Shown piece after piece: positions 9,607 to 28,512 of a stretch of 64,000 nt of DNA; within the stretch, counting starts at the first letter, position 1, and the number at the start of each line of letters is the position of its first letter. The stretch spans positions 61,379 through 125,378 of the forward strand of contig JABDAH010000001.1 in assembly GCA_013289265.1 (NCBI GenBank), written 5' to 3'. This stretch comes from Alphaproteobacteria bacterium (lineage in GTDB: Bacteria; Pseudomonadota; Alphaproteobacteria; UBA9219). Under the pieces are notes generated by a model. The model had not been told where the DNA came from, did no database searches, and saw nothing but the letters and a program-made list of their open reading frames with translations. The translations under genes were made by a program, and so were the position numbers.

Positions 9607-10044
9607 ATGACGGACTCAAATCCTACCATACCGAATAAAAGAGAAATTGTTTGGGCAGGCTCTGTCGATACCATACCGAATAAAAGAGTTATTGATTGGG
9701 CAGGCTCCGCTATTGAGTTTTGTGGTTTTGCTGCTGTTGGTAGTGTTGTGTTAAAGGAACCGCACGTAATGGAGGCTATACAGCACGCATCTGATTCCGT
9801 GGGAAATGTAATATCGAAAGATACTTATTGTGTTGTTGCAGAAGTATTGGCTTTTGCAGCTATCCTAACTGCTGCAGTCATCAGAACAAGAAACTCTCAA
9901 TCAATAAAGCATGGCGAAGAAACATTTTCACGAGGTAGTTTAGATGAAAAAACCCCGGTGATTGATGTGGATCATAAGCATAGGGTATCTCGTTTCTTGC
10001 GTGTTTCTGTTCCCTTACCGTTGCTGTACCACCATCCGCGTTGA
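9607..10044 (+). CDS. hypothetical small membrane protein with tandem 15-aa repeat
   Basis: 145-aa ORF in AT-richer intergenic-like region; contains TIPNKREIVWAGSVD / TIPNKRVIDWAGSAI repeat and two hydrophobic segments; coding status uncertain. Confidence 0.35.
   Translation: MTDSNPTIPNKREIVWAGSVDTIPNKRVIDWAGSAIEFCGFAAVGSVVLKEPHVMEAIQHASDSVGNVISKDTYCVVAEVLAFAAILTAAVIRTRNSQSIKHGEETFSRGSLDEKTPVIDVDHKHRVSRFLRVSVPLPLLYHHPR
9626..9715. repeat. 45-bp tandem direct repeat (2 copies, approx 85 percent identical)
   Basis: ccataccgaataaaagag[aaattgtt/ttattgat]tgggcaggctc... repeated head-to-tail. Confidence 0.8.
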
Positions 10045-10123: not shown

Positions 10124-11371
10124 ATGCATCCTTATCAAATCTTTCGTCACCGCGCTTTTGCCCTTTTCTGGTTGGGCAAACTGCTGACTATCATGGCGAC
10201 GACGGCGCAAAGCGTCGCTATCGGCTGGCAGGTTTATAATGTCGCCCGCCTTACGCGCAGTGTCGAGGAAAGCTCGTTGCTGGTGGGCATGGTCGGGCTG
10301 GTGCAGTTCCTGCCCTTGTTTGCGCTGGCGCTGCTGGCGGGTGAATCGGCGGATCGTTATGACCGCCGTAAAATTCTGCTGGCTTGTTCAGGGTTGCAGC
10401 TTATCAGTTCTGTCATGCTGGTGCTGGTTTCGCTGCAGGATCAGACATCACTGACTATCCTTTTTGCAATCGCCGGAATGTTTGGCGTATCGCGCGCCTT
10501 TTCCGGACCTGCAAGTTCAGCACTTTCCCCTACGTTGGTTCCAAAAGAAATTCTGCCACATGCCGTAGCGTGGAGCACGCTTAGCGTTCAGGGTGGGATG
10601 GTTTTGGGGCCGTGGCTCGGCGGCATGTTGTGCGCGATTGATCCGCTTTGGGCTTATGCCTTTTCTGGTGCGCTTTATTTTATCGCGATTGTGACTTGCC
10701 TTGCCTTGCTCGCAATGAAGATCAATGCCAAGGCGACGCACAAAAGTGGCGCGCGCATGACGATGATTAAAGAAGGTCTGGCTTATCTTTGGTCTAGCAA
10801 GATTGTATTGGGCGCTATTTCGCTGGATTTGTTCGCGGTATTTCTTGGCGGCGTCACAGCGTTATTGCCCGTCTATGCCCGTGATATTCTGGACGTCGGC
10901 GCATCGGGTTTCGGTTTGTTGCGCTCTGGACCAGCTCTCGGCGGTGGTCTCGTAACATTAGTGCTGAGCGTACGACCCATTCGTCGTCATGCGGGGCCAT
11001 GGATGCTTTGGGCCGTGGTTGTTTACGGCATAGCCACAATTATTTTTGCAGAATCGAAGACTGTATGGTTGTCGATGGGAATGCTGGTGTTGTTGGGCGC
11101 CGCGGATTCTGTTTCGGTTTTTGTGCGCCAGAGCCTCGTGCAAATTGTGACCCCGGATCATATGCGTGGACGTGTATCGGCAGTATCCGGCCTGTTCATC
11201 AGTGCCTCCAACGAATTTGGTGAGTTTGAAAGTGGCGTTGCCGCCCGCTTGCTGGGGCCTATCGGGGCTGTGCTGTTTGGCGGCATTGGTTCTATCGTCA
11301 TTACGGGGCTATGGGCCAAAATTTTCCCGGCCTTACGCAAAGCCGATAAACTGGTTGCGCCGGAGTTGTGA
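10124..11371 (+). CDS. MFS transporter
   Basis: 415 aa, 12 predicted TM segments, MFS-like motif region (GxLaDRyDRRKIL). Confidence 0.85.
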   Translation: MHPYQIFRHRAFALFWLGKLLTIMATTAQSVAIGWQVYNVARLTRSVEESSLLVGMVGLVQFLPLFALALLAGESADRYDRRKILLACSGLQLISSVMLVLVSLQDQTSLTILFAIAGMFGVSRAFSGPASSALSPTLVPKEILPHAVAWSTLSVQGGMVLGPWLGGMLCAIDPLWAYAFSGALYFIAIVTCLALLAMKINAKATHKSGARMTMIKEGLAYLWSSKIVLGAISLDLFAVFLGGVTALLPVYARDILDVGASGFGLLRSGPALGGGLVTLVLSVRPIRRHAGPWMLWAVVVYGIATIIFAESKTVWLSMGMLVLLGAADSVSVFVRQSLVQIVTPDHMRGRVSAVSGLFISASNEFGEFESGVAARLLGPIGAVLFGGIGSIVITGLWAKIFPALRKADKLVAPEL

Positions 11372-12549
11372 TGGATTTCTCCGGCTTCAATCTTGTTGTT
11401 GTCGGAGCCGGTTTTTACGGCCTCACGATCGCGCATCAGGCGGCAACCAAGCTTGGCCTGAAGGTTTTGGTCCTAGAGAAACGCGATCATCTCGGCGGCA
11501 ATGCCCACAGCGCTATCGATCCCGATACGGGCATAGAAGCGCATCTGTATGGTTCGCATCTGTTTCATTGTAATTCCGAGGAAATATGGAATTACCTGAA
11601 TGGCTTTACGCCGTTTACTGATTACCGCCACCATGTGCTGACTAATCACGGCGGTAAAATCTATCCGATGCCGATTAATCTTGGCACCATTTGCAGTTAC
11701 TTTGGCAAAGCTTTTACACCGGATGAAGCGCGGGCGCTCATCGCCTCGCAACGCGCCGAGGCAAAGACTGACGCCGCCAGTAATCTTGAAGAAAAAGCGA
11801 TATCACTGATTGGTCGTCCTTTATATGAGGCATTCATCCGCGGCTATACCGCCAAGCAATGGCAAACCAATCCACGTGAATTGCCGGCAGATATAGTCAC
11901 GCGCCTGCCGGTGCGTTTTACCTTTAACGCGCGCTATTTCGATGACCGTTTCGAAGGACTGCCTTCCGAGGGGTATTTCACGCTTTTCAAACGCATGGTG
12001 GATCATCCCAATATCCAGGTGATGCTGAAAACAGATTTCTTTCAGTTGCGAAGCCAGTTGCCTGCTGCAGCGCCAATTATCTATACCGGTCCGATTGACC
12101 GCTACTTCGATTTTAAACTGGGCGAGCTCTCATGGCGCACGCTCGATTTCGAACGCGAAGTCATGCCGACCGGCGATTATCAGGGGACATCGGTCATGAA
12201 TTATGCGGATGAAACCGTGCCTTTCACACGCATACATGAATTTCGGCATCTGCATCCGGAGCGGGATTATCAGCGCGAAAAGACGCTTATCTTCCGTGAA
12301 TATTCCCGCTTTGCGCAAAAGCAGGACGAACCCTATTACCCTGTCAATACGCCAAAGGATAAAGATTTGTTTGCCGCTTACCGTAAGCTGGTGGAGCAGG
12401 AAAAGAATGTAATCTTCGGTGGCCGGTTAGGGACTTATCGCTATCTCGATATGCATCAGGCGATTGGTGCGGCGTTTAAATTGTTTGAGAATAAGCTGAA
12501 GCCGCATTTTACAGAAAATTGTGCGCTGATACCGGGTGCTGGCGATTAG
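11368..12549 (+). CDS. glf: UDP-galactopyranose mutase
   Basis: N-terminal FAD-binding GAGFYG motif, full-length similarity to Glf (approx 390 aa). Confidence 0.88.
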
Positions 12550-13492: not shown

Positions 13493-14275
13493 TTAAATTG
13501 AAAAGCCTGCATCCATATGTTTGAGAGTCTGCTGCCTTGTCTGGTAATCGGGGATATAGTTCGCGACGTAGTTCCAGAAATGCACCGAATGGTTTTTATG
13601 CCGGATATGTGCCAACTCATGCACGATAAGATAATCGATCACAAATAAAGGCGCCATCATGACGCGCCAGTTGAGGCGAATGTCATTCTGGGCACTGCAG
13701 CTGCCCCATTGCCGCGTCGGGCTAGTGATCTTTATGCTGCGATATTTCAGGCCCATCTGCGTGGCCCATAATTCCGTTCGCTCTTTCAAGATATTTCGCG
13801 CCTGCTTTTTGTACCAAAGGATAATCTCCAACCGAATTTCTTCCTGAAGTTCTGCGTCTGAAACAGCAGCAGATTGCGGCAGATTGATCTCAAGCCAACC
13901 GTCCTTAATGCGGCAGGTTTGTTTCGTCGTATCGTTGGTCACGGTCAGCTGATAGGCATCACCGAGATAATAAACCGTTGCGCCTTCGTTTAAGGTTTGC
14001 GGGAAATGCGGGGCTGAATTCTTTTGCACCTCAGCCAACTTGCCGGCAAGCCAGTCCTGGCTATGTAGCAAAAATTGATCGATCGTTTGCATGCGGGTGC
14101 GTAGCGGTGCATTCAGCCGCAGCTTGCCCGACGGCTCGATATAAAGCGTGATCCGCCGTCGTCCTTTTTTGCGGTGAAGGGTATAGAGGACTTGCCGCTG
14201 ATGAATAGTTATATGGCCTTCCTCAACCAGAGGCGGTGTCTTGCGGGTGGTGAGGAATTTAAGGCTGAGCATCAA
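13493..14275 (-). CDS. YgjP-like (DUF45) zinc metallohydrolase
   Basis: C-terminal HEXXH ([11 protein letters not shown]) in DUF45/SprT-like context. Confidence 0.75.
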
Positions 14276-14365
14276 TGCAGGTTAACATGTGGCCAAAGTC
14301 GTGCAAATCCTTGTTTTTCGTTGATTATTATGCCTTTGCAAAAAAGGCGGCTTTTACGCTACAAA

Positions 14366-15262
14366 ATGTCCATGACTTACAACGTTGCTGCCCTTTATCA
14401 ATTTGTTGCCATTCCGGACACAGCCGCTTTACGCCTGTCGTTGAAGGAAGCTTTCGCACCTCTGGATATATGCGGCACTTTGCTAGTGGCGCCTGAGGGC
14501 ATTAACGGCACTCTGGCAGGCAGGGGCGACGCGATTGAAAAAATGCTCGCTATCCTGAATGAGAAAACTGGCTTACCTCGCGATGCGGTCAAATTCTCGA
14601 CCGCGCCGGAAAAGCCATTTAACCGTCTTAAAATTCGCCTGAAACGGGAACTGATCACTTTTAACCAACCGCACGCCGACCCGAACACTCTGGCGGGCAC
14701 CTATGTCGAGGCGCAGGACTGGAATAAATTGATCAGCGATCCGGATGTGGTGGTGCTGGATACTCGCAACCGTTATGAAACAGTAATCGGTGTGTTTGAT
14801 AAAGCGCTCGATCCGCAAATCGATAAATTCACGGATTTCGCCGAATATGTGAAGCAAAATCTGGACGCGACCAAGCATAAAAAGATCGCGATGTATTGCA
14901 CCGGTGGTATCCGCTGCGAAAAAGCATCCGCCTATATGCGCGCCGAAGGGTTCGAGGAAGTTTATCACCTTAAAGGGGGCATTCTAAAATATCTGGAAAC
15001 TATTCCGGCGGATGAAAGCAAATGGCAGGGCGAATGCTATGTGTTCGATAAACGTATGGCCGTTGGCCACGGCCTTACCACTGGTAACTATTCCATGTGC
15101 TTTTGCTGTGGGTACCCCTTATCCGCCGAAGATAAAAAACATCCTGCTTTCGAAGAAGGCGTTTCCTGTGCGCATTGCCATGCAGACAGCAGCGAAGAAG
15201 ACAAGCAACGTTTCCGTGCCCGCCATCAGCGGATGACGGGACCGGAACAAGCTGCGCAATAG
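14366..15262 (+). CDS. trhO: rhodanese-domain tRNA uridine(34) hydroxylase (UPF0176/YceA)
   Basis: UPF0176 N-domain, rhodanese active Cys (CTGGIRCEKA), C-terminal Cys cluster; track ORF starts at 14174 but ATG 14366 (MSMTYNV) avoids overlap with divergent gene. Confidence 0.82.
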   Translation: MSMTYNVAALYQFVAIPDTAALRLSLKEAFAPLDICGTLLVAPEGINGTLAGRGDAIEKMLAILNEKTGLPRDAVKFSTAPEKPFNRLKIRLKRELITFNQPHADPNTLAGTYVEAQDWNKLISDPDVVVLDTRNRYETVIGVFDKALDPQIDKFTDFAEYVKQNLDATKHKKIAMYCTGGIRCEKASAYMRAEGFEEVYHLKGGILKYLETIPADESKWQGECYVFDKRMAVGHGLTTGNYSMCFCCGYPLSAEDKKHPAFEEGVSCAHCHADSSEEDKQRFRARHQRMTGPEQAAQ

Positions 15263-15313: not shown

Positions 15314-16189
15314 GTGATTCCTTTAGCCTCTCCCACTGATACCGGCCTGCCAGCTGACGCGCGTATTATTCCGCTGCGCGGTTTTTCCGGTTGCCATGTG
15401 CTGTTAGTGAGCAGTAATCAAAGCACTTATGTGCGTAAATTGTCGCGCGATGCTGATTACAATAAACGGCTTTTACAGCAAGCCGAGAAGCAAAAGAATT
15501 TTACCGGCAATGACTTCTTTCATCCGGTGAAGGTCAGAGCGTCCGGGCAATTGCCATCCGGCATTGCGTATATCGATATGGATTATGTGCCGGGCGTAAC
15601 GGCTGCCGAAATTCTTACGACGCTGCCGCTTGCGGATATTCAACGCTGGTCAGGGATGTTGTTGCGTTTTGCCAGTGCGCCCGAGCAGGGAACGATTGAC
15701 TCAACAATCTTCAAAAACAAAATCGTCGAGCTGCAAACTATTTTGCAGGAGCGCAATCTTACAACACCGGCAGTTGCGGAAACTTTGGCGCGTCTCCGCA
15801 GCCGCCCATGGACCGGTGTTCCGCATTCACCTTGTCACGGCGATCTGACGCTGGAGAATATTCTGGCGCATGACGGGCAGCTTTACCTGATCGATTTTCT
15901 CGATAGTTTTGCCGACAGCTGGTACATGGATATGGCCAAGCTGATGCAGGACCTTATCGGCGGCTGGAGCTTTCGTTATCTGGAAGCTGACCGGAACCTT
16001 GTGCTGCGCCTTGCTAGTCTGCGCCACAGTATTGAATCTGCTTTGGAAGAAAAGCGCAGCGGTTGCGTTGCTACCATACATGACTTGTACGCGCTGAGCC
16101 TTTTGCGTATTCTTCCCTATAGTTCTGCTCAAGAAGAACAACGCTATATAGAGGGCCGTCTATCCGCGGCCCTGAACGATTTTTTATGA
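15314..16189 (+). CDS. APH/choline-kinase-family phosphotransferase (LicA-like)
   Basis: Brenner motif CHGDLTLENIL and downstream IDFLDS (DFG-equivalent). Confidence 0.7.
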   Translation: MIPLASPTDTGLPADARIIPLRGFSGCHVLLVSSNQSTYVRKLSRDADYNKRLLQQAEKQKNFTGNDFFHPVKVRASGQLPSGIAYIDMDYVPGVTAAEILTTLPLADIQRWSGMLLRFASAPEQGTIDSTIFKNKIVELQTILQERNLTTPAVAETLARLRSRPWTGVPHSPCHGDLTLENILAHDGQLYLIDFLDSFADSWYMDMAKLMQDLIGGWSFRYLEADRNLVLRLASLRHSIESALEEKRSGCVATIHDLYALSLLRILPYSSAQEEQRYIEGRLSAALNDFL

Positions 16190-16199
16190 GGGTGCTGCC

Positions 16200-17276
16200 A
16201 TGACAACGCTAATCGTGCCTTGTGCCGGACGTTCGACGCGCTTTCCCGATATGCGCCCCAAATGGCTGCTGACCCATCCTGACGGCAAGCTGATGGTCGA
16301 TAAGGCCTTGGAAGGTTGCGGTATCGAACGGTTTGAGCGTGTGGTTTTCGTCGTTACCAAAGCGCATGACGATGAATTTGAGGCCACGCTTATTCTTAAG
16401 CAGGCTTTTACCGAACGGCTTGGTGAGCGGCTGCATATCGTTATTCTGCCGGAATTTACTTCCGGTCAGGCGGAGACTGTTTCTCAGGCAATCACTGCCG
16501 CAAAAATTACGGGCCCGCTGCTTATCAAGGATTCCGATAATTATTTGGCATGGGACGACGGCAACGATGTTTTGAATTTTGTCGTGGTCGGTAATCTTGC
16601 GCGGTTGAGGGACACTACAAATGTCGCCGCCAAAAGCTATGCTGTGCTCGATAAAAACGGCATCGTGCAGGATATCGTTGAGAAGCGGATCATCTCAAGT
16701 ACTTTCTGTGCAGGCGCATATCAATTCGCCTCGGCTGAGGCATTTCAGAAAGCCTTTACTGATATGTCGTCCAATGCGGGTCTGGAAAAAGAGACTTACG
16801 TCAGCCATGTCATTGCCTGGATGATGGCGCGCGAAGGCCAGATCTTTCGCGGCTATGAAGCTACGAGCTATGAAGATTGGGGAACTCTCCGTGAATGGCG
16901 TGCCAAACAAAAAAGGTTTTCAACCTTGTTCTGTGACCTAGACGGCGTGCTGGTAAAAAATGTTGGTCGTTACGGTACGCGCCGTTGGGAAAATAGTTTG
17001 GAGCCCATTCCGGAAAATTTGCAGGCCCTGAAAACAGCTTACACGAACGGTGCGCAGATTATTATCGTCACAGCACGTAGCGAGGATTTTCATTTGCGTA
17101 TCACCGCTCTGCTGAAGGAATATGGCATCGATGCGCATGCCATCATTACCGGTTGCAATCATAGTCACCGCGTTTTGATCAATGATTACGCGCCGACCAA
17201 TTCGTACCCGAGTTGTAGTGCCGTATCTGTGCCGCGCGATAATCTAATTGCGCCCTTCCTGCAGGAATATCTGTGA
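16200..17276 (+). CDS. bifunctional nucleotidyltransferase (LicC/MobA-like) and HAD-family phosphatase
   Basis: N-terminal LIVPCAGRSTRF (GxG-type NTP-transferase P-loop); C-terminal HAD motif I DLDGVL and motif II IIIVTAR. Confidence 0.65.
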   Translation: MTTLIVPCAGRSTRFPDMRPKWLLTHPDGKLMVDKALEGCGIERFERVVFVVTKAHDDEFEATLILKQAFTERLGERLHIVILPEFTSGQAETVSQAITAAKITGPLLIKDSDNYLAWDDGNDVLNFVVVGNLARLRDTTNVAAKSYAVLDKNGIVQDIVEKRIISSTFCAGAYQFASAEAFQKAFTDMSSNAGLEKETYVSHVIAWMMAREGQIFRGYEATSYEDWGTLREWRAKQKRFSTLFCDLDGVLVKNVGRYGTRRWENSLEPIPENLQALKTAYTNGAQIIIVTARSEDFHLRITALLKEYGIDAHAIITGCNHSHRVLINDYAPTNSYPSCSAVSVPRDNLIAPFLQEYL

Positions 17277-18112
17277 ACGCTAAACCGCGCATAGCTCTGA
17301 TGCTATCGGGGCTCACGCGGCAATGGCGTCGGTGCCTGCCAAGCCAGCTTGCATTGCTTCGCGATTATCCGGTCGACGTGTTCTTTTATTTTTGGGATAC
17401 AATTGACGCCAAAGAAAAGCAGGAAATTGTCGATCTGCTTAAGCCGCGCGCCTATGCATTTGCGCCGCCGCAGGATTTCTCGGCCCTCGATAGTGACCCG
17501 ACCATAAATCCTGACCTCATCAATGTTCCGTCGCGGATGTTCTCACAATATACCGGTTGGCGGAATGTCGGGAAGTTAGTCGAGCCTTACCGAAATGAGT
17601 ATCAACTTGGTATGCGCAGCCGTGCCGATCTGCAATTTGTTTATACCATTGACCATATTATCCCGATGCTGAAGCCCAACGATATTTTGATACCGTGGTG
17701 GGAGGAGGGGAAGTTATTGTCCGATATATTCGCGATCGGCGCTATTGAGCCGATCCTTTATTACCACACGCTCATCGATCATGTGCGCGAATATACCAAA
17801 ACGCGGCAGTTCAATTCCGAGCTAATGCTCACGGCGCATTTCGAGCAGCGGCGCGATATCCATGTCTACACCGATGCGGCGAAATATTTCTTTGTGCGTC
17901 GTCCACATATGGAAAATTACACGGTTGAACAGGCGATGCTGGAAGATCCCGGCTGCAATAAATGGCTTGATCCGGAGGTCGTGCAGGCGCACAGCGATTA
18001 TCATCAGCAGCAAAAAGGAGAGGAAGGTGCGCTCTATGTCAAAGACTTCCGCCACGTTCACTTGAATAAACTTGTTGAAGATGTAAAACAAAAACTCAGC
18101 GAGAAAAAATAA
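17273..18112 (+). CDS. hypothetical protein (possible transferase of the LicA/LicC-like module)
   Basis: 279-aa ORF translationally coupled (ATGA/GTGA-type overlap) to preceding gene; no recognised motif. Confidence 0.5.
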   Translation: MNAKPRIALMLSGLTRQWRRCLPSQLALLRDYPVDVFFYFWDTIDAKEKQEIVDLLKPRAYAFAPPQDFSALDSDPTINPDLINVPSRMFSQYTGWRNVGKLVEPYRNEYQLGMRSRADLQFVYTIDHIIPMLKPNDILIPWWEEGKLLSDIFAIGAIEPILYYHTLIDHVREYTKTRQFNSELMLTAHFEQRRDIHVYTDAAKYFFVRRPHMENYTVEQAMLEDPGCNKWLDPEVVQAHSDYHQQQKGEEGALYVKDFRHVHLNKLVEDVKQKLSEKK

Positions 18113-18114
18113 TT

Positions 18115-19230
18115 CTAGGCTTGCTTTAGGGTTTCGATCTTGCAGTTTTCTATCTGCGCGGCCTCTTGCAACAGGTTTTGTAAGTTTTGATCTTTATGTT
18201 TCGTGGTCATAATAAAATGACGGAGGCCCGCCTTCACGGCATGTTCCGGCGTTAATACAGGGATACCCGAAAAAGAATGTTTGGAAATTTCCGGATGTTC
18301 TTCAATCAAGGCCGATACAGAGATGCCCATTTTGTGTGCCAGTGCTAGAGCGAGAACTCCGTGAAAACGGGTAGATACAATTGCCAGAGAATCCCAGCCC
18401 GACTCTTTCGCTTGTTGAAGTAACTTTTGCGTTGGCGCGATCAGCGGTGCAAAAGCCTGATTGTCAGTTGCCGCTTTGATAACGGCCAGCGCCACAAACA
18501 GGGCAACTTTATCATTGCCCGTGTGATGCCACAGAATTTGTTCCAAAACACGCAGGCAATCGGCCTGGCGATTTTCGCGCTGAAACTGAAAAGCCAGCTG
18601 CAGCGTATCCGTTACTGATTTGCTAAGCCCGATCTGCTTTGGTGTCAGCAGTAGGTACCCTTCATTTTCATAAAAGCGTTTGATGTTGTGTGTTCCGTCA
18701 AAGAACTGAGAGACAAAATTGACGTTGCGGCGTTCCGGCGGCAGGCCGCAATGCTCAGCCGGGCATGGCCCGCTGCCGAAGGAACCTTCCTCGTAAATGC
18801 GCAAATCATCAATGATAATAACGTCATTAGCATTCGGGCGATGCGTACTGATGAGCTGTAGTTCACGTTCCAGCGGTAGGCGCAAATCCTCGTTCCGTTC
18901 ATCGGTATAACCGCGTTTGGTGTAATCGGCACCAGGAAAATGCGCATCAAGCCAGAAGATAGTGGATTGATCTGGCGGTAATGACGGCAGGATGCTCTGC
19001 AACATGTCTTCGCTGGTCTTGGTGTGGATGTGTATGCGTGGATCGTCCTGAAACAACGACTGCACCGCTTTGGCCAGATCCGGCTCGCATTCGCAGGTAT
19101 GAAGGATAGCAAAAGGAAAAGTAGCGGCGTAATGCAGGCTGATACCAATACCGGTGCCAGTCTCGACAAAATTGCGGCAGCCGTAATTCTCGATCAGATC
19201 TTTGAGGTTAAATTGGTCGAGAACGCCCAC
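18115..19230 (-). CDS. hypothetical protein, N-terminal class I SAM-methyltransferase-like and C-terminal DUF218(YdcF/ElyC)-like regions
   Basis: NFVETGTGIG glycine-rich loop; C-terminal KVALFVALAV ... LAIVSTRFHG resembles DUF218 core; assignment tentative. Confidence 0.5.
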   Translation of the reverse strand: MGVLDQFNLKDLIENYGCRNFVETGTGIGISLHYAATFPFAILHTCECEPDLAKAVQSLFQDDPRIHIHTKTSEDMLQSILPSLPPDQSTIFWLDAHFPGADYTKRGYTDERNEDLRLPLERELQLISTHRPNANDVIIIDDLRIYEEGSFGSGPCPAEHCGLPPERRNVNFVSQFFDGTHNIKRFYENEGYLLLTPKQIGLSKSVTDTLQLAFQFQRENRQADCLRVLEQILWHHTGNDKVALFVALAVIKAATDNQAFAPLIAPTQKLLQQAKESGWDSLAIVSTRFHGVLALALAHKMGISVSALIEEHPEISKHSFSGIPVLTPEHAVKAGLRHFIMTTKHKDQNLQNLLQEAAQIENCKIETLKQA

Positions 19231-19910: not shown

Positions 19911-20294
19911 TTACGGTCGTAAAAGATCGATAGTGACAGGGCTGGCATATTTGTTATCGGCACCGGTCACAGAGTCAAAACCCCATCCGACGGGACCGCC
20001 TACGAGAATGTAGGCCCAATTATATTCCGGATATTCGGACTTATTAAGATAGGTTGTTTCCCGATAGCCGGCTTTGTCGCACTTAATAGAAATATCGTCT
20101 TTGGTTTTTTCTACATGTAGCGTGCCTGGTGTCGAACTGACGGTGCCAAGCGGTGCGCCATTGCGTAGGAGGGTGCAGCTCGCGCCTTGAGGCGCAGTGT
20201 TTACGACAACGTCCTGAGATTCGCCTTCAATGACCGAAGCGCATCCAGAAAGTAATACAAAACAAGACAGCAAGATAAAGCGTTTGTGATTCAT
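19911..20294 (-). CDS. lipoprotein, unknown function
   Basis: signal peptide plus lipobox LLSGC. Confidence 0.6.
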   Translation of the reverse strand: MNHKRFILLSCFVLLSGCASVIEGESQDVVVNTAPQGASCTLLRNGAPLGTVSSTPGTLHVEKTKDDISIKCDKAGYRETTYLNKSEYPEYNWAYILVGGPVGWGFDSVTGADNKYASPVTIDLLRP

Positions 20295-20382
20295 ATTATG
20301 CCCCTATAAGTGACGTCATCGCTGGTATTCTATGTGTGAAACTATATATGAAGCGACAAAAATTGTCACTTATTTCTCTGGA

Positions 20383-20919
20383 TCATTTATACTCGACCGG
20401 AAAATATTCAGAAATGAGCATTATCGGCACATTTGCCGAAATGACGCGGTAAGTGCGAACCAGTAACATGTTGGACTTGGCGCAATTAAAGTGATCGCAC
20501 AGTCCATTCGCCTGTACATGCTTTACTTCCAGTAATTCCTTAAATGTTTCCAGTTTATGCTCCAGCCATAACCGGCCAAGCGAAGTGTCAGAATTAACCA
20601 GCGCGTTGCGAAATGTGGGGTGTAAGCGGTCGAGTGCAATTGTGGATTCTGCATAGACATAATTCTTGTTCGATTTTTCTCCGCGTAACAGTATTCTTCT
20701 TTCCACAATGCTTGCGCCTGCATTGAGGGTGAGATGCGGGGGAGAAGGAGTAGCGGAAATCGTTTGCTGTGAAATTTTGACTAAATGAATGCGTTCAAAA
20801 AAGGTGGCCTCTAAAATCTCAGTGAGAGTTCCATCTGTAATGATGAGAACTCGCTGCAATGGATTTAAGGTGCCAGCATCGATCCCTTGCAGTTTTTTGA
20901 GAATGTCGAGTGCGGACAT
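20383..20919 (-). CDS. chorismate pyruvate-lyase (4-hydroxybenzoate synthase), Rv2949c/DUF98 family
   Basis: 178 aa; shared blocks with Rv2949c-type lyases: TDGTLT, LLRGE, YAESTIALDRL, ETFKE, YRVIS..PIM..EYF. Confidence 0.75.
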   Translation of the reverse strand: MSALDILKKLQGIDAGTLNPLQRVLIITDGTLTEILEATFFERIHLVKISQQTISATPSPPHLTLNAGASIVERRILLRGEKSNKNYVYAESTIALDRLHPTFRNALVNSDTSLGRLWLEHKLETFKELLEVKHVQANGLCDHFNCAKSNMLLVRTYRVISANVPIMLISEYFPVEYK

Positions 20920-20931
20920 ATATAATTCCGA

Positions 20932-22155
20932 TCAAATTCTTTTAAAGATAAGCGATGTATTGATCCCGCCAAAAGCGAAGTTATTTGACATCAGATATTC
21001 TGTCTGCAATTGGCGTGGGGTCTTGATGATGTAGTCTAACTGGGCGCAACGTTCATCAACGTTTTCCAGATTGGCCGTTGGGCAGAACCAGCCTTCACGC
21101 ATCATTTCGATGCCAAGCCACGCCTCAATCGCGCCGCAAGCTCCAAGCGTATGACCAAAATGCCCTTTGAGAGAATGCATGGGAACTTGTGACCCAAGCG
21201 CTTTATGAGTGGCTTCACTTTCAGCTATATCACCCCATTCGGTTGCCGTGCCATGAGCACTAACGAAGCCAATGGCCTCAGGCGGCAATTCTGCATCCTC
21301 AATGGCAAGACGCAGGCATTGCTGCATAGTGGATGCTTGAGGCGTCGTGATGTGATTGCCATCAGAGTTGCATCCAAAACCCACAATCTCAGCATAGATA
21401 GGAGCACCGCGGGCACGCGCGTGTTCGTATTCTTCCAGTATTAGTGTGCCGGCACCCTCTCCAACAACTAACCCGTCGCGGTCCCGATCAAAAGGTCGCG
21501 GAGTTGTTTCCGGTTGATCGTTTTTGGTACTGGTCGCATAGAGCGTATCGAAAGTTGCGGAATCCGTAATATCCAGTTCCTCGGCACCGCCTGCGATCAT
21601 CATATCGGCTTTGTTCCAGCGAATAGCTTCATATGCATACCCGATACCTTGGCTGCCGGAAGTACAGGCGCTAGAGGTTGGAATAATTCTTCCTGTTATG
21701 CCGAAGAAAACGCTGATATTCACCACCGTGGTTTGTCCCATCATGCGAATGTAATTCGTGGCATTGAGGTGTTTGGATGTTCCATTCATTTTGAGTTCAT
21801 AAAAACCTAGAACAGCATCGGGACTACCGAAGGAAGAACCGTAGGCTACGCCCATACGTCCCGATTGGATGAGGGGGCTATTCAACAGTCCCGCGTCCGT
21901 TAAAGCGCGTTCCGTGGCATAAACTGCCATGCGGGATACCATTCCCATTGTCCGCAGCTTTTTTCGGGGATAACGATCTTCGACAGAAAAACCAATTACT
22001 GGGGCCGCGAGACGCGTATTGACGTCAGTGAAACGGCCCCATTCTTCCATAAAGCGGATGCCTGTGCGCCCAGCGGCAAAGGCGTCGCGAATAGTTGGCC
22101 AATCTTCGCCAAGCGAGGTGATGCCGCCCATACCAGTGACAACGACGCGACGCAT
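20932..22155 (-). CDS. beta-ketoacyl-ACP synthase (FabB/FabF-like; APE-cluster ApeR-like)
   Basis: 407 aa, active-site Cys in SSACTSG, His/His motifs (SAHGTAT, GHTLGACG). Confidence 0.88.
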   Translation of the reverse strand: MRRVVVTGMGGITSLGEDWPTIRDAFAAGRTGIRFMEEWGRFTDVNTRLAAPVIGFSVEDRYPRKKLRTMGMVSRMAVYATERALTDAGLLNSPLIQSGRMGVAYGSSFGSPDAVLGFYELKMNGTSKHLNATNYIRMMGQTTVVNISVFFGITGRIIPTSSACTSGSQGIGYAYEAIRWNKADMMIAGGAEELDITDSATFDTLYATSTKNDQPETTPRPFDRDRDGLVVGEGAGTLILEEYEHARARGAPIYAEIVGFGCNSDGNHITTPQASTMQQCLRLAIEDAELPPEAIGFVSAHGTATEWGDIAESEATHKALGSQVPMHSLKGHFGHTLGACGAIEAWLGIEMMREGWFCPTANLENVDERCAQLDYIIKTPRQLQTEYLMSNNFAFGGINTSLIFKRI

Positions 22156-22880
22156 TAGACCATCCCACCATTTACTGAAATGACCTGACGCGTGATGTAG
22201 CTGGCCTCGTCAGAGCATAGGAAGGCGACGGCGGCGGCAACTTCATCTGGTTGCCCCATACGGCGCATAGGTATTAATTGCGCCACGTCATCGGGTGTTA
22301 GGCCTGAAGTCATCTGTGTTTCAATAATGCCGGGAGCCACGCAGTTCACGGTGATGGAGCGTTTGGCCAGTTCAATAGCCAGGGCTTTGGTCGCTCCAAT
22401 AATGCCAGCCTTGGCGGCACTGTAGTTCACCTGACCGCGATTGCCTACTTCGCCGGATACAGAAGACAGGGTGACGATCCGGCCACCTTTCCGTGCCGAT
22501 ACCATCGGCATCACCAGTGGCCGTAACACATTATAAAAACCGTCAAGATTTGTGCTCAATACGGAATCCCATTCCTCATCTTCCATGGCGGGGAAAGCGT
22601 TGTCTCGCGCAATACCTGCATTGAGCACGACACCGTAATAGGAACCATGTTCTGCTATGTCAGCTTCCAGTACTTTGCGGCAAGTGGCGCGATCGGAGAT
22701 ATCGAAAGTAATTAAGCGTCCTTGCGACCCTGCCTCCTGAACGGCTTGCAAGGTTTTTTCCGCGCCTTCCTTATCTTTTCCATAATGAACGACGATCTGA
22801 AACCCTTCGCGTGCGAGACGGACTGCGATAGCGTGACCTATGCCCTTACTGGCGCCTGTAACCAAGATGGTTTTATCCAT
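22155..22880 (-). CDS. 3-oxoacyl-ACP reductase (FabG-like; APE ApeQ-like)
   Basis: SDR Rossmann TGASKGIG, catalytic YSAAK. Confidence 0.88.
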
Positions 22881-22886
22881 AATATA

Positions 22887-23399
22887 TTATTCCTTTGATG
22901 AATGACTGAAAGCGTCGGACGCATCTTGAGGTTGATATAAATTTAACTGGGCCGAGGCGAGTTCAACATCTCCATGAATTATGCGGCAATCGAATACACC
23001 CATTGTATCCTGTCGATATACTTCTTTTGCTTCGACGACAAGCTGTTGCCCAAGGTTAAACCAACCTGTTGAAGCATGAAAATTTCTTGTTCCCAGCAAG
23101 AATCCAAGGCGCACAGGTTGACCGTGGTTGCGTCCTTCAATACCAGCATATATGCCACAGGTTTGGGCCATATATTCAAGACCGACATAAGACGGAACGC
23201 CGTTATTTTCTATAAAAAATGGGCTGTCAGAACGAATGGTGATTGTAGCAATAACCTGCCCCGCATCCCAGCCAAGCACTTGATCAAGCAACACCATAGG
23301 CGGCGCATGGGGCAACAGATCGGCAATGGGATAGGAACAACTATGCACCGTATTATGCCCTTCCAAGAATGAGGGAGGCATTGCTGCCTCCAAAACCAA
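22887..23399 (-). CDS. hotdog-fold 3-hydroxyacyl-ACP dehydratase (FabA/FabZ-like; APE ApeP-like)
   Basis: LLPHAPPMVLLD motif, hotdog size; start probably internal Met (MPPSFLE). Confidence 0.75.
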   Translation of the reverse strand: MVLEAAMPPSFLEGHNTVHSCSYPIADLLPHAPPMVLLDQVLGWDAGQVIATITIRSDSPFFIENNGVPSYVGLEYMAQTCGIYAGIEGRNHGQPVRLGFLLGTRNFHASTGWFNLGQQLVVEAKEVYRQDTMGVFDCRIIHGDVELASAQLNLYQPQDASDAFSHSSKE

Positions 23400-24546
23400 A
23401 GGAATTACTTAGCATGGCAAGCTGCTTGCCCTCAGGCAGCGGTGTTCCCATCGCCACGAAATTGAGAACGGGCAAATTCGGATCATGGATGCCATCCCAT
23501 AAATGGGGTGGTAAAAGTGCGGGGCTGGTTGCGGCATTCAAGGCAAGCCACAAAAAGGCGGCTTCGCAACCGCCCGTAGCCCCCAACATATGACCTGTCA
23601 TACCCTTGGTGGAGCTGCATGGTGTCTGCGAACCAAAGATGGAAGAAACGGCGCGAGCTTCCATAGCATCGTTCAAAGATGTGGCTGTGCCATGCAGATT
23701 AATATAGGCGATATCGGCAGCTGTAAGTCCTGCATCATCGAGGGCCTGTAGCATGGCTTGACAGGCGCCATTGCCTTCCGGATCAGGAGCTGTGAGATGA
23801 TAGGCGTCTGAAGTTTCTCCGATCCCAAGAAACTGTACCGGCCCGTCGTCCGCGCTTAATAAAAAGGCCGCAGCACCCTCGCCAATGGTTATACCGTCCC
23901 TGTTTGCGCTGAAAGGATTACATTTTTCTTTTGCTAACAATTCCAGAGCGTCAAAACCGTTAAGCGTCATGCGGCACAGCGTATCGGAACCACCTACAAT
24001 GGCGGCATCGGCCAACCCTGCGCGAATTAATCGCCGCGCTGAAGCGAAGACCTTGGCGCTGGATGAGCAAGCTGTTGCCACAGTATATGTGGGGCCAGTT
24101 AAACCCAAAAAACATGCGGCGAAAGTGGAAAGGCCGCTTATTTCCTGTTTGTGATAATGATAATCAGTTGGCCAAGAACCTGTATTTTGGCGAATGACCA
24201 TGGCTTCTTCACTTGAAGATGTTCCTGATGTGCTTGTGCCCAAGACAACGGCGATGCGGTCGCGGCCATAACGTTTAATGGCTTTCTCAACTGCTGGAGT
24301 GATCTCCATGAGAGCCATCTGCATTAAACGATTATTGCGGCAATCGAAATCACGCAAGGCCGCAGGGGGCGTAGGGAGATCATCTCGAACTGCCCCTACA
24401 TAGACTTGTTTGTTGGGCACAAGATCATCACGGAGACTTATTCCATTATTATCTCCCGCAAACAGTGCGCAAGCAACGGCGGTTTTACCATTCCCAAGAG
24501 GAGTAACAATTCCACAATCTTCCAGAAACAGGGGGCGTGCGCTCAC
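23353..24546 (-). CDS. beta-ketoacyl synthase (APE ApeO-like)
   Basis: 397 aa, active Cys TVATACSSS, HGTATSLND and GHMLGATG motifs. Confidence 0.85.
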   Translation of the reverse strand: MSARPLFLEDCGIVTPLGNGKTAVACALFAGDNNGISLRDDLVPNKQVYVGAVRDDLPTPPAALRDFDCRNNRLMQMALMEITPAVEKAIKRYGRDRIAVVLGTSTSGTSSSEEAMVIRQNTGSWPTDYHYHKQEISGLSTFAACFLGLTGPTYTVATACSSSAKVFASARRLIRAGLADAAIVGGSDTLCRMTLNGFDALELLAKEKCNPFSANRDGITIGEGAAAFLLSADDGPVQFLGIGETSDAYHLTAPDPEGNGACQAMLQALDDAGLTAADIAYINLHGTATSLNDAMEARAVSSIFGSQTPCSSTKGMTGHMLGATGGCEAAFLWLALNAATSPALLPPHLWDGIHDPNLPVLNFVAMGTPLPEGKQLAMLSNSFGFGGSNASLILGRA

Positions 24547-25145
24547 GGATTTGTCTCCGTTGACTGCACGTTGAATTCATAACCCCAAGCGATGTTGCGG
24601 TAATGCAATTGCCCAGACCACAAATCGTGCTTGGTATTCATTTGATAATTCGCCTGCCACACTTTTTTGTGTCCAGACATTATCGTGCGACTATATCTGT
24701 CAGCAACCAGTTTGACTAATGAACCCACCAAGCCCTTCTTTACGATGGTCTCCGGCCAATAGAGCAGGACAATATCGGCGAGAATATTTTTAGCCCGCAG
24801 TTGTGAGGGAACCCAAGGTGCTGTTTCAAAATCCGTCCCTTCTTTTGTCCAATTAATAGTCATTATCTTTCGCCCCATAAGATCGAGGCCGATCAATAAA
24901 AAATGTTCCGGCGTTACGCTGATGTGTGCTTCAAATGCAAAATTCTGATCCCCGTAATGTGCTGTCACGAGCTGGACAGCTTCAACGGAATGACCAAGGT
25001 CGGCCGGGTTGGGCATGGTTAAAGCCACGTCAGGCGCGATTTGTACAATTTCTGGAACGTTTGCATCCGATGATGCTTTATCGGTTGAGTTATGGGCACA
25101 AGCGCAAAGAAGCAAGATGAGCGCAAAGGGGATTATGTTTCGCAT
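24543..25145 (-). CDS. lipoprotein (DUF3261-like; APE ApeN-like)
   Basis: lipobox LLLCAC; position between KS and MMPL exporter as in APE clusters. Confidence 0.65.
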   Translation of the reverse strand: MRNIIPFALILLLCACAHNSTDKASSDANVPEIVQIAPDVALTMPNPADLGHSVEAVQLVTAHYGDQNFAFEAHISVTPEHFLLIGLDLMGRKIMTINWTKEGTDFETAPWVPSQLRAKNILADIVLLYWPETIVKKGLVGSLVKLVADRYSRTIMSGHKKVWQANYQMNTKHDLWSGQLHYRNIAWGYEFNVQSTETNP

Positions 25146-25148
25146 CGA

Positions 25149-27476: not shown

Positions 27477-28093
27477 GGATGCACGGAATTGAAGGCCAGT
27501 TTTTCAGCTGCCGAGGGCGGCTTCGACGACAGTGCTTCATTAAGAAAAGTCAATGTATCAGAATCACCGTCCGGTTTTAACAAAACAACATTCTCAACAA
27601 ACTGATGCCCGCTAACCGTAATTGAACTGAAAGGCATTGCTGGGTTATCAGTACGGCGAGGCAGAAGCAGGACTTGCCAATTTTGATCATCTCCGCTTCT
27701 GGCAACTGTAAAATCTGTTTCTAGCGCCTTCCAATTACCTGCGAGAACGCCTCCCAGCATGTCGTAAAGATGAAGCATAAAGGGAATTTTCTGTGCAGGC
27801 AGGCGCATGACATTAATGCCACCAACGCTTTGCACTAATCCGGAAGGAGTAATAACGGTCGTTGTAGGAAATGGCTTCTCCACGCCCCAAATAACTCCAT
27901 GCTCTGGAGCCACCACAAAATGCCCTTCGGAATTCATAGGCCCGTTGAAGCCCTTTAAATTTCTTTCTTCAATAAAGCGACCCCTTAGAATATCGCTGTT
28001 GCCCATCACAACTTGACCTGCATTCGCGTTGGCGGCGAATGCGATTGAAGATGGAAACAAAAAAAGGAAGGCCAATAAGAAGTGGCGTGTCAT
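27473..28093 (-). CDS. LolA-like outer-membrane lipoprotein carrier protein (APE ApeL-like)
   Basis: signal peptide, LolA-size periplasmic protein; ATGA overlap with thioesterase gene. Confidence 0.7.
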   Translation of the reverse strand: MTRHFLLAFLFLFPSSIAFAANANAGQVVMGNSDILRGRFIEERNLKGFNGPMNSEGHFVVAPEHGVIWGVEKPFPTTTVITPSGLVQSVGGINVMRLPAQKIPFMLHLYDMLGGVLAGNWKALETDFTVARSGDDQNWQVLLLPRRTDNPAMPFSSITVSGHQFVENVVLLKPDGDSDTLTFLNEALSSKPPSAAEKLAFNSVHP

Positions 28094-28512
28094 GAGAGGT
28101 CTTTCAATTTATCGGTTAAGGCAGTTGGTGACTCCAGACAAAGCTCGTTTGTTGAGACCTCAACCGCAACTTGAGTGGTGGTCGCTTTCGTTAAAACCTC
28201 ACCGCTAGCGTGGTCACGAATAATATATTCGATCTTCAGGCGGTTTGCAGATTCCAGAATTGTAGCGGAGATAACAAATTTTTGATGAAATCGTATGGGA
28301 CGTATAAATTTCATCTGCATATCAACAATCGGCCAGATATAGCCTGATGCCTGCATTTCGGCGTAGTTATAGCCTATATTATCAAGCAGCTGGCAGCGTA
28401 CTTGTTCCAGAAAACGGGCATAGTTGCCGTGCCACACAACCCCCATGGGGTCGAGATCATAGAATTGTGCCGTGAGTGTTATTTCCGTAGAGACCATGAC
28501 TAGCGCGCCCAA
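28090..28512 (-). CDS. 4HBT-type acyl-CoA/ACP thioesterase (APE ApeK-like)
   Basis: hotdog thioesterase YbgC-like pattern (YDLDPMGVVWHGNY). Confidence 0.75.
   Translation of the reverse strand: MGALVMVSTEITLTAQFYDLDPMGVVWHGNYARFLEQVRCQLLDNIGYNYAEMQASGYIWPIVDMQMKFIRPIRFHQKFVISATILESANRLKIEYIIRDHASGEVLTKATTTQVAVEVSTNELCLESPTALTDKLKDLS

What the first reader, a model, noticed from the sequence alone, without database searches (positions are those of the whole stretch)
15314..18112. LicA/LicC-like head-group activation module: kinase, nucleotidyltransferase-HAD fusion and an unknown coupled ORF
An APH/choline-kinase-family kinase (HGDLTLENIL, IDFLDS) is followed 10 nt later by a protein fusing a LicC/MobA-type nucleotidyltransferase domain to a HAD phosphatase domain (DLDGVL). 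A 279-aa unknown protein is translationally coupled after that. Kinase plus NTP-transferase is the architecture for making CDP/NDP-activated small alcohols or sugars (phosphocholine, aminoethylphosphonate, heptose). The fused HAD domain and the unknown third gene make this an unusual variant whose product (an LPS/EPS or lipid head-group decoration?) is not evident.
Basis: partly seen in the sequence, partly recalled or inferred. Interest (0 to 1): 0.55.

Follow-up and report, generated by a model that had tools for sequence, protein, structure and literature searches.

The report
Three-gene sugar activation and transfer cassette
Three tightly packed genes encode a kinase, a fused nucleotidyltransferase-phosphatase and a previously unrecognised glycosyltransferase that most likely turn a sugar phosphate into a nucleotide sugar and attach it to a cell-envelope glycan; this uncharacterised gene set occurs in many bacterial phyla and resembles a pathway recently found in phages.

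Summary
Three co-directional ORFs sit at 15314-16189, 16200-17276 and 17273-18112, separated by a 10-nt gap and then a 4-nt overlap.

- **ORF1 (K)** is an APH-fold kinase.
- **ORF2 (NH)** fuses a sugar-1-phosphate nucleotidyltransferase (NTase) fold to a small capless HAD phosphatase.
- **ORF3 (U3)** has no sequence-family match but models confidently as a GT-A-fold glycosyltransferase.

The pair K-NH is strongly conserved. The kinase is the upstream neighbour of NH in about 69 of 77 loci from more than ten phyla. NH loci usually also carry a WavE (PF07507) or U3-like gene (55 of 77) and often an SDR nucleotide-sugar epimerase/dehydratase (40 of 77). The exact trio recurs in three other genomes with unrelated flanks. 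Natural fusions exist in which kinase, NTase and HAD form one chain, and in which NTase-HAD is joined to a U3-like domain.

The kinase and HAD domains are distant homologues of phage AfhE/AfhF. Those enzymes make UDP-D-arabinofuranose by 1-phosphorylating arabinose-5-phosphate, removing the 5-phosphate, then adding the nucleotide. *Vibrio cholerae* carries an equivalent HAD/kinase/NTase/WavE operon in its LPS-core cluster.

My reading is a rearranged cellular relative of that route plus its own transferase. The sugar and the acceptor are unknown. It is a new variant of a known kind, of moderate interest.

The parts
15314..16189 (+). K: APH-fold small-molecule kinase (291 aa), proposed anomeric (C1) kinase acting on a sugar phosphate
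   Evidence: Pfam APH at E 3.9e-11, above the cut-off. Family invariants are G23/S25/G26, K42, D177, N182 and D194. A homologue sits directly upstream of NH in about 69 of 77 loci. hhalign against the kinase half of bacterial AfhE homologues gives prob 96.9%, E 1.6e-10; against phage AfhE it gives 72%, E 3.4e-5. In P0405 it is fused to NTase-HAD.
16190..16199 (+). 10-nt intergenic spacer; a GAGGG Shine-Dalgarno-like sequence overlaps the kinase stop codon
   Evidence: Read directly from the sequence. In the nearest relative L003 all three genes overlap by 4 nt.
16200..16913 (+). NH, N-terminal domain (aa 1-238): sugar-1-phosphate nucleotidyltransferase fold
   Evidence: Profile against PDB: 4EVW at E 8.3e-10. 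Foldseek: 4EVW 1.2e-14 (TM 0.81 on the target), then GlmU, inositol-1-P cytidylyltransferase, LicC, RmlA and GalU. Invariant motifs are PCxGxSxRF...PK, KDSDN, EK and EDWGT. hhalign against the V. cholerae 4EVW family gives 97.5%.
16917..17276 (+). NH, C-terminal domain (aa 240-358 plus stop): small capless HAD phosphatase, proposed distal sugar-phosphate phosphatase
   Evidence: HAD motif I D246-x-D248-G is invariant. T291-A-R and N328-D329 are invariant or nearly so. NCBIfam HAD-IIIA scores 2e-5, below its cut-off. hhalign results: free-standing 125-aa HAD (c15) 98.7%, E 4e-16; phage AfhF 89%, E 2.3e-6; V. cholerae 126-aa HAD 92.4%.
17273..18112 (+). U3: GT-A-fold glycosyltransferase-like protein (279 aa) of an unnamed family, proposed user of the nucleotide sugar
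   Evidence: No Pfam, NCBIfam or PDB sequence hit. AlphaFold pLDDT 95.5. Foldseek gives GT6 BoGT6a at 1.9e-7, plus alpha-1,3-GalT, COLGALT1 and glycogenin, with TM about 0.5. It is homologous to neighbour cluster 6 (96.5%, E 1e-9) and to the C-terminal half of cluster 17 (90.5%), both of which lie next to K-NH. P0323 is a natural NH + U3-like fusion (96.3%, E 1.8e-9). The trio is conserved in L003, L092 and L093.

Best explanation
The three genes form one operon that makes a nucleotide-activated sugar and transfers it.

**Proposed steps**
1. The APH-fold kinase phosphorylates the anomeric hydroxyl of a sugar that already carries a distal phosphate, giving a sugar-1,x-bisphosphate.
2. The HAD domain of the second protein removes the distal phosphate, giving a sugar-1-phosphate.
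3. The nucleotidyltransferase domain of the same protein condenses that with an NTP to give an NDP-sugar.
4. The third protein, a cytoplasmic GT-A-fold glycosyltransferase, transfers the sugar to an acceptor. The acceptor is probably an LPS-core, O-antigen or exopolysaccharide intermediate at the inner face of the membrane.

**What is shown:** the three folds, intact catalytic motifs, conserved linkage, natural fusions, and distant homology of the kinase and HAD to the phage AfhE/AfhF enzymes.

**What is inferred:** the order kinase then phosphatase, by analogy with heptose (HldE/GmhB) and with UDP-arabinofuranose (AfhE/AfhF). The identity of the sugar, the nucleotide and the acceptor are also inferred. 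A 5-phosphopentose such as arabinose-5-P or ribose-5-P, which would give a furanose nucleotide sugar, is attractive but unproven.
For: **Folds and motifs**
- Kinase.
- NTase and HAD.
- GT-A.

**Linkage**
- A kinase homologue lies immediately upstream of NH in about 69 of 77 loci from Alphaproteobacteria, Melainabacteria, Firmicutes, Elusimicrobia, Saccharibacteria, Verrucomicrobia, Planctomycetes, Spirochaetes and one archaeon.
- A WavE or U3-like gene lies within 5 genes in 55 of 77 loci, and an SDR NDP-sugar enzyme in 40 of 77.
- The exact K-NH-U3 trio occurs in L003, L092 and L093 with different flanks.

**Rosetta-stone fusions**
- P0405 is kinase-NTase-HAD in one chain.
- P0323 is NTase-HAD joined to a U3-like domain.

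**Homology by parts to a characterised pathway**
- In phage HY126, AfhE is an arabinose-5-P 1-kinase/UDP-arabinose pyrophosphorylase, and AfhF is a Mg-dependent HAD that removes the 5-phosphate of Araf-1,5-P2. This is as summarised in PMC13326640.
- K against bacterial AfhE homologues (c8): 96.9%. c8 against phage AfhE: 100%, E 1.5e-39.
- The NH HAD against AfhF: 89%.

**Same activities with a WavE gene in a defined LPS-core locus**
- V. cholerae and Aeromonas veronii have overlapping genes in the order HAD(126 aa)-AfhE-like(527 aa)-4EVW NTase-WavE.
Against: - No enzyme of the K-NH family has been assayed, so the reaction order, sugar and nucleotide are all inferred.
- The window has no linked sugar-phosphate isomerase. 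Where a KpsF/KdsD-type isomerase lies next to K (7 loci), an AfhE-like gene (c8) is also present. The isomerase may therefore serve that module and not K-NH.
- The NH NTase domain shows no significant profile match to the AfhE NTase domain (0.5%; 42% to c8).
- More distant U3 homologues (51-57% identity) in L083-L085 are not beside K-NH, so U3 is not an obligate partner.
- U3 lacks a canonical DxD motif; it has R-x-D. Its best structural matches have TM only about 0.5.
Confidence: 0.6

Rival explanations
1. Salvage order, as in MupP/AmgK/MurU. The HAD domain first removes the distal phosphate from a sugar phosphate, or the cell imports a free sugar. The kinase then phosphorylates the free sugar at C1, and the NTase makes the NDP-sugar. 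No bisphosphate intermediate is formed. U3 still transfers the sugar.
For: APH-fold anomeric kinases that act on free sugars are known (NahK, AmgK; from my own knowledge). The phage paper's own structure-based table first listed 'dephosphorylates Araf5P to Ara / phosphorylates Ara to Araf1P' as a possible reading. All fold and linkage evidence fits this order equally well.
Against: The closest characterised relatives of the kinase and HAD (AfhE/AfhF) are reported to use the bisphosphate order. Fusing the HAD to the NTase fits hand-over of sugar-1-P from phosphatase to NTase better than a phosphatase acting two steps earlier. That point is inference only.
Confidence: 0.2
2. LicA/LicC-type head-group module. 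The kinase phosphorylates a small alcohol (choline, ethanolamine or similar), the NTase makes the CDP-alcohol, and U3 transfers the phospho-head-group to LPS or a lipid.
For: The best solved-structure sequence match of the kinase family is pneumococcal choline kinase LicA (E 6.1e-5). LicC and inositol-1-P cytidylyltransferase are among the top structural matches of the NTase domain.
Against: No LicB or LicD-type gene was recognised among the neighbour families annotated in the 80 loci. The neighbours are NDP-sugar SDR enzymes, GT2/GT4 and WavE. The kinase is nearer to AfhE-like sugar-phosphate kinases. This scheme leaves the HAD without a role. U3 resembles Leloir GT-A glycosyltransferases, not LicD-type transferases.
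Confidence: 0.08
3. The three proteins are not one pathway. The kinase is an antibiotic or other small-molecule kinase, the HAD is a generic phosphatase or pyrophosphatase that merely pulls the NTase reaction, and U3 is unrelated.
For: Single-sequence Pfam/NCBIfam hits for the NTase and HAD domains are below threshold. Some HAD enzymes are inorganic pyrophosphatases; the NCBIfam model for one appears among the hits of neighbouring beta-PGM-type HADs.
Against: Adjacency across phyla, two kinds of natural fusion and trio conservation argue strongly against independence. Known HAD pyrophosphatases belong to the capped beta-PGM-like group, whereas this domain is capless and PNKP/AfhF-like.
Confidence: 0.04

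Closest known systems
Phage UDP-D-arabinofuranose pathway: arabinose-5-P isomerase + AfhE (NTase-kinase fusion) + AfhF (small HAD), in HY126, RB69, DLP3 and LC53 (PMC13326640 and the work it cites)
   Same: The same three activities are present: an APH-like kinase, a small capless Mg-HAD and a sugar-1-P NTase. The kinase and HAD are distant homologues (hhalign 72-97% and 89-98.7%). RB69ORF053c is a structural match of the NH NTase domain.
   Different: The domains are fused differently: kinase alone plus NTase-HAD here, against NTase-kinase plus HAD alone in phage. There is no linked isomerase in the window. The NTase domains are not detectably related by profile. The product here goes to a GT-A-like transferase in a cellular context, not to DNA glycosyltransferases. 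tblastn finds no RB69-type hit. The sugar may well differ, because both modules co-occur in 11 loci.
Nucleotide-heptose pathway: GmhA, HldE or HldA/HddA kinase, GmhB (HAD-IIIA), HldC/HddC NTase, HldD (SDR)
   Same: The chemical logic is identical: sugar-phosphate, then 1,x-bisphosphate, then 1-phosphate, then NDP-sugar, often followed by an SDR epimerase. The HAD is of the IIIA/capless kind.
   Different: The heptose kinases belong to the ribokinase or GHMP families (established knowledge), not the APH fold. No GmhA was found in the loci. The SDR neighbours score about equally for GalE, LegB, RmlB and HldD models, all below their cut-offs.
Vibrio cholerae / Aeromonas LPS-core (wav) operon: HAD(126 aa)-AfhE-like(527 aa)-NTase 4EVW-WavE
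   Same: It has the same activities plus a dedicated WavE-type protein, with all genes overlapping. 4EVW is the best sequence and structure match of the NH NTase domain.
   Different: The domain arrangement differs: separate HAD, kinase fused to an NTase-like N-domain, and an extra stand-alone NTase. The transferase is WavE (PF07507). U3 does not match that model and is related to it only weakly (38.6%). No function for this operon was found in the papers I could read.
LicA/LicC phosphocholine activation, and AmgK/MurU/MupP MurNAc recycling
   Same: Each pairs an APH-fold kinase with a small NTase. MupP adds a HAD phosphatase. LicA and LicC appear among the PDB matches.
   Different: Similarity is only at fold level. 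There is no LicB/LicD or peptidoglycan-recycling context, and the neighbours are polysaccharide genes.

Membership tests
APH / choline-kinase-like phosphotransferases (Pfam PF01636) | Profile match above the gathering score, with the catalytic HxD(x)4N loop and the Mg-binding Asp | tested here: met
   43.6 bits against a cut-off of 23.2. HGDLTLEN and IDFLDS are present. D177, N182 and D194 are invariant in 33 family members.
LicA/LicC/LicD phosphocholine system | Kinase orthologous to LicA, a LicC cytidylyltransferase, and a LicD transferase and LicB transporter nearby | tested here: not met
   LicA is matched only at E 0.44 with the single sequence and 6e-5 with the profile. No LicB or LicD-like family appears among the neighbour clusters I annotated.
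Sugar-1-phosphate nucleotidyltransferases (RmlA/GlmU/GalU/LicC fold) | N-terminal G-x-G-x-R...K loop, Mg-binding Asp, EK(P) phosphate-binding Lys, and the overall fold | tested here: met
   Foldseek E 1e-14 to 1e-12 with TM up to 0.81 on the target. G10, R14, K21, D111/D113, E161-K162 and D226 are invariant or nearly so. The Pfam models themselves are below threshold at 18 bits.
HAD phosphatase superfamily | Motif I DxDG(T/V), motif II S/T, motif III K/R, motif IV acidic pair | tested here: met
   D246-L-D248-G-V, T291, R293/R324 and N328-D329 are conserved. The family profile hits the Pnkp1 phosphatase domain at 1e-3. hhalign to AfhF gives 89% and to c15 98.7%. Single-sequence Pfam/NCBIfam scores are below their cut-offs.
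AfhE/AfhF UDP-arabinofuranose pathway | Kinase and HAD homologous to AfhE C-domain and AfhF | tested here: met
   The homology is distant. K against c8 gives 96.9%, E 1.6e-10, and c8 against AfhE gives 100%, E 1.5e-39. The NH HAD against AfhF gives 89%, E 2.3e-6.
AfhE/AfhF UDP-arabinofuranose pathway | NTase-kinase fusion architecture and an adjacent arabinose-5-phosphate isomerase | tested here: not met
   Here the kinase is separate and the NTase is fused to the HAD. The genes annotated from 26 to 30260 include no SIS isomerase, and no SIS gene lies next to the cassette. The NTase domains are not related by profile.
AfhE/AfhF UDP-arabinofuranose pathway | Substrate arabinose-5-P and product UDP-D-arabinofuranose | not testable with these tools
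   This needs enzyme assays. The co-occurrence of both modules in 11 loci hints at different sugars.
WavE (Pfam PF07507) | Match of U3 to the WavE profile | tested here: inconclusive
   No Pfam hit even at E<=1. U3 alone against a WavE alignment gives hhalign 1.4%. A broadened U3 + cluster 6 + cluster 17 profile gives 38.6%, E 3.2e-4, with the same motif order.
GT-A fold glycosyltransferases | Rossmann-like GT-A fold with a DxD (or variant) motif | tested here: inconclusive

The most novel reading that the evidence does not exclude
The K-NH family makes a nucleotide sugar not yet described in cells. One candidate is an NDP-pentofuranose or NDP-ketofuranose locked in the furanose form by the 1-kinase/distal-phosphatase route. 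U3, cluster 6 and WavE proteins would then be an unclassified glycosyltransferase superfamily that installs it on LPS or polysaccharides in many phyla. From memory and unverified: the V. cholerae core contains fructofuranose, and its donor has not been identified as far as I know. The equivalent wav operon could then be its source.
Probability: 0.25. Interest if true: 0.7.

Novelty: new variant of a known kind. Interest (0 to 1): 0.5.

Why it matters
If the model is right, a route known only for heptoses, and since 2025-26 for phage UDP-arabinofuranose, is widespread in cellular polysaccharide loci under a different domain arrangement. The NH family has 535 clusters at 50% identity. It is common in gut Alphaproteobacteria, Melainabacteria and Firmicutes, and also occurs in CPR bacteria and giant viruses.

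The model gives a testable function to three unnamed protein families, and by extension to WavE and to the solved but unassigned structure 4EVW. It also points to compact three-gene cassettes that could be expressed directly to find the sugar.

Tried and rejected
**Searches that found nothing useful**
- Single-sequence PDB searches of the three proteins gave no useful matches.
- Literature searches on 'WavE' were swamped by the common word 'wave'.
- Searches for the V. cholerae core structure and the wav genes found nothing usable. Nesper 2002 is not held.
The window's own NH protein is not indexed for context.
- The promoter/terminator scan gave counts no higher than in shuffles.

**Tools unavailable**

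**Ideas tested and dropped**
- *Is the convergent 371-aa ORF (18115-19230) part of the module?* It has no homologue in any related locus and no family or PDB match, so no.
- *Is the adjacent arabinose-5-P isomerase specific to K-NH?* This is weakened, because all 7 such loci also carry an AfhE-like gene.
- *Is U3 always beside K-NH?* No. Three more distant U3 homologues are not, although one of those loci has a stand-alone NH-type NTase next to it.
- *Is there a direct BLAST relation to RB69-type phages?* None was found.
Full report
**1. Observation**

- K, 15314-16189, 291 aa.
- NH, 16200-17276, 358 aa. It starts 10 nt after the K stop, with a GAGGG Shine-Dalgarno-like sequence overlapping that stop.
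- U3, 17273-18112, 279 aa. Its GTG start overlaps the NH stop (GTGA).

The quoted motifs are all present: HGDLTLENIL, IDFLDS and DLDGVL.

- K matches Pfam APH above threshold (E 3.9e-11).
- For NH, the NTase and HAD calls are below threshold on the single sequence. A 25-sequence family profile hits the V. cholerae NDP-sugar pyrophosphorylase 4EVW at E 8.3e-10, and a PNKP-type phosphatase domain at 1e-3.
- The NH AlphaFold model (pLDDT 88) matches 4EVW, GlmU, inositol-1-P cytidylyltransferase, LicC, RmlA and GalU at Foldseek E 1e-14 to 1e-12.
- Family-invariant residues of NH include the NTase loop (G10, R14, K21), D111/D113, E161-K162 and D226. The HAD motifs D246-x-D248, T291 and N328-D329 are also conserved.
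- U3 has no Pfam, NCBIfam or PDB sequence match.

**2. The unknown third protein**

- U3 has only 32 relatives in the 5.8-billion-protein search.
- Its model is very confident (pLDDT 95.5).
- The model resembles GT-A-fold glycosyltransferases of families GT6, GT8 and GT25 (best E 1.9e-7, TM about 0.5).
- It has no signal peptide or obvious membrane span (my reading of the sequence). It ends in long helices.
- The conserved motifs are an N-terminal strand-Gly-Leu-x-Arg, a (H/Y)FWD strand, RSRAD and SD-x-FA-x-G. There is no canonical DxD.

**3. Conservation and context**

The NH fusion is a large, unnamed family.

- 709 hits in the word-indexed search, nearly all about 350 aa and full length.
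- 535 clusters at 50% identity with E<=1e-30 in the exhaustive search.

I fetched 80 loci from a species-representative genome set, plus Treponema primitia and a Bacillus. I called ORFs and clustered the neighbours.

| Feature near NH | Loci out of 77 |
|---|---|
| K homologue as immediate upstream neighbour | about 69 |
| WavE (PF07507) gene | 44 |
| U3-like gene (clusters 6, 17, 73) | 22 |
| WavE or U3-like, always within 5 genes | 55 |
| SDR NDP-sugar epimerase/dehydratase | 40 |

- GT2, GT4, Wzy and ABC-transporter genes are frequent.
- U3 is homologous to cluster 6 (hhalign 96.5%, E 1e-9).
- U3 is also homologous to the C-terminal half of a protein of about 620 aa (cluster 17, 90.5%). That protein flanks K-NH in cultured Alphaproteobacteria such as Neorhizobium galegae and Sphingobium xanthum.
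- A broadened U3 profile aligns with WavE motif by motif, but only at 38.6% probability.
- The exact K-NH-U3 trio recurs in L003 (NH 74% identical), L092 (80%) and L093 (57%), each with unrelated flanking genes. It therefore behaves as a self-contained cassette.
- L094 (64%) has WavE instead of U3.
- More distant U3 homologues are not next to K-NH.

**4. Fusions**

The exhaustive search turned up longer proteins.

- P0405 (647 aa) is kinase-NTase-HAD in one chain. The K profile matches residues 5-261 at 99.4%, E 1.5e-21.
- P0323 (610 aa) is NTase-HAD followed by a U3-like domain (96.3%, E 1.8e-9).

These Rosetta-stone cases tie all three window genes into one function.

**5. Link to a characterised pathway**

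A 2026 paper (PMC13326640) describes how phages RB69, DLP3 and HY126 make UDP-D-arabinofuranose.

1. An arabinose-5-P isomerase supplies arabinose-5-P.
2. AfhE has an N-terminal pyrophosphorylase and a C-terminal kinase. The kinase phosphorylates arabinose-5-P at C1.
3. AfhF, a small Mg-dependent HAD, removes the 5-phosphate.
4. The AfhE NTase domain then forms the UDP-sugar.

I fetched three phage loci and compared profiles.

- NH HAD against AfhF: 89%, E 2.3e-6.
- K against the AfhE kinase domain: 72%, E 3.4e-5.
- NTase domains: not significant.

Eleven of the bacterial loci carry a protein of about 510 aa (c8) that is a clear AfhE homologue (100%, E 1.5e-39).

- Its kinase half matches K at 96.9%, E 1.6e-10.
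- It is usually accompanied by a KpsF/KdsD-type isomerase and a 125-aa HAD (c15).
- That HAD matches the NH HAD at 98.7%.

So K-NH is a domain-rearranged relative of the Afh system. Because the two modules co-occur, they probably act on different sugars. The isomerase linkage therefore cannot be credited to K-NH.

**6. Vibrio**

The best structural and sequence match of the NH NTase, 4EVW, belongs to a family of more than 4,000 proteins named 'capsular biosynthesis protein' or 'GT2'.

- In V. cholerae it lies inside the LPS-core cluster. It is one of four overlapping genes: HAD (126 aa), a 527-aa protein, 4EVW and WavE.
- Aeromonas veronii has the same arrangement.
- The 527-aa protein is AfhE-like (99.7% to c8, 92.8% to AfhE).
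- The HAD is AfhF-like (98.1%).
- 4EVW matches the NH NTase domain at 97.5%.

The same set of activities plus a WavE-type protein is therefore a recurring unit in envelope-glycan loci.

**7. Mechanism proposed**

1. The kinase phosphorylates C1 of a sugar phosphate.
2. The HAD removes the distal phosphate.
3. The NTase makes the NDP-sugar.
4. U3 transfers the sugar.

- Shown: the folds, motifs, linkage, fusions and homology by parts.
- Inferred: the order of steps, and the identity of the sugar, the nucleotide and the acceptor.

A 5-phosphopentose is attractive because the route would fix the furanose ring, but nothing in the window decides it.

Rivals:
- A salvage order with no bisphosphate intermediate, as in MupP/AmgK/MurU.
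It is supported only by fold-level matches. It is contradicted by the gene context and by the unexplained HAD.
- Independence of the three genes, which the conservation and fusions exclude.

**8. Surroundings in the window**

- Upstream are trhO, ygjP, cysK, glf and an MFS gene.
- Downstream is a convergent orphan ORF, then DUF4823, then an aryl-polyene-type cluster.
- None of these is conserved with the cassette.
- The source is probably a Rhodospirillaceae-like alphaproteobacterium, judging from the nearest locus L003. It could not be named.

**9. Verdict**

The module is not a rare oddity. It is a member of a widespread, uncharacterised family whose nearest characterised relatives are the phage AfhE/AfhF enzymes and, by logic, the heptose pathway. 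I rate it a new variant of a known kind, with interest about 0.5.

Noticed in passing
window 19911-30260, minus strand (probably extending further): This looks like an aryl-polyene-type lipid cluster. It encodes a chorismate-lyase-like protein, two ketoacyl synthases, a ketoreductase, an ApeP-type dehydratase, DUF3261, a 775-aa protein without Pfam hits, a LolA-like protein, and a GT2 fused to a lipid A-type acyltransferase.
   Followed up: partly
window 18115-19230, minus strand: A convergent 371-aa ORF whose stop lies 2 nt from the U3 stop. It has no Pfam, NCBIfam or PDB match and no homologue in any of the related loci. By eye, the N-terminus has a methyltransferase-like E-T-G-T-G-I-G motif.
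   Followed up: partly
window 10124-12549, plus strand: An MFS transporter and a UDP-galactopyranose mutase (glf; TIGR00031 at 332 bits, above its cut-off) overlap by 4 nt, so this organism probably makes galactofuranose glycans. They are not conserved with the cassette.
   Followed up: no
L026, L027, L028, L031, L032, L054, L059, L066, L077, L002, L065 (e.g. L026:3283-7149): Bacterial polysaccharide loci carry clear homologues of phage AfhE (about 510 aa; 100%, E 1.5e-39). Most also have a KpsF/KdsD-type isomerase and a 125-aa HAD. This is probably a cellular UDP-arabinofuranose pathway and a possible source of the phage genes.
   Followed up: partly
L090:6050-9685 (V. cholerae wav cluster) and L091:6056-9663 (Aeromonas veronii): Four overlapping genes encode an AfhF-like HAD, an AfhE-like 527-aa protein, the NTase solved as 4EVW, and WavE, inside the LPS-core locus. 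I found no function for them in the papers I could read. From memory, the V. cholerae core contains fructofuranose; I could not verify this.
   Followed up: partly
proteins P0385, P0341, P0390: NH homologues carry an extra N-terminal domain of about 190-250 aa of unknown nature. Giant-virus proteins of 635-716 aa (Indivirus, Bodo saltans virus) align with NH over about 370 columns.
   Followed up: no
phage records MH319741.1 (Marine virus AG-345-E15) and cyanophages S-CAM9, Bellamy and S-PRM1: A marine virus contig carries adjacent K and NH homologues (37% and 33% identity). Several Synechococcus phages encode an NH-type NTase domain annotated as a phosphatase or pyrophosphorylase.
   Followed up: no
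window 9607-10044, plus strand: This 145-aa ORF contains a direct peptide repeat, TIPNKREIVWAGS / TIPNKRVIDWAGS, and has no Pfam hit. It may not be a real gene.
   Followed up: no
window 14174-15262, plus strand: The mechanical start of trhO (GTG 14174) overlaps ygjP by about 100 nt. The NCBIfam TrhO match begins at residue 69-71, so the true start is probably the ATG near 14366-14372.
   Followed up: no
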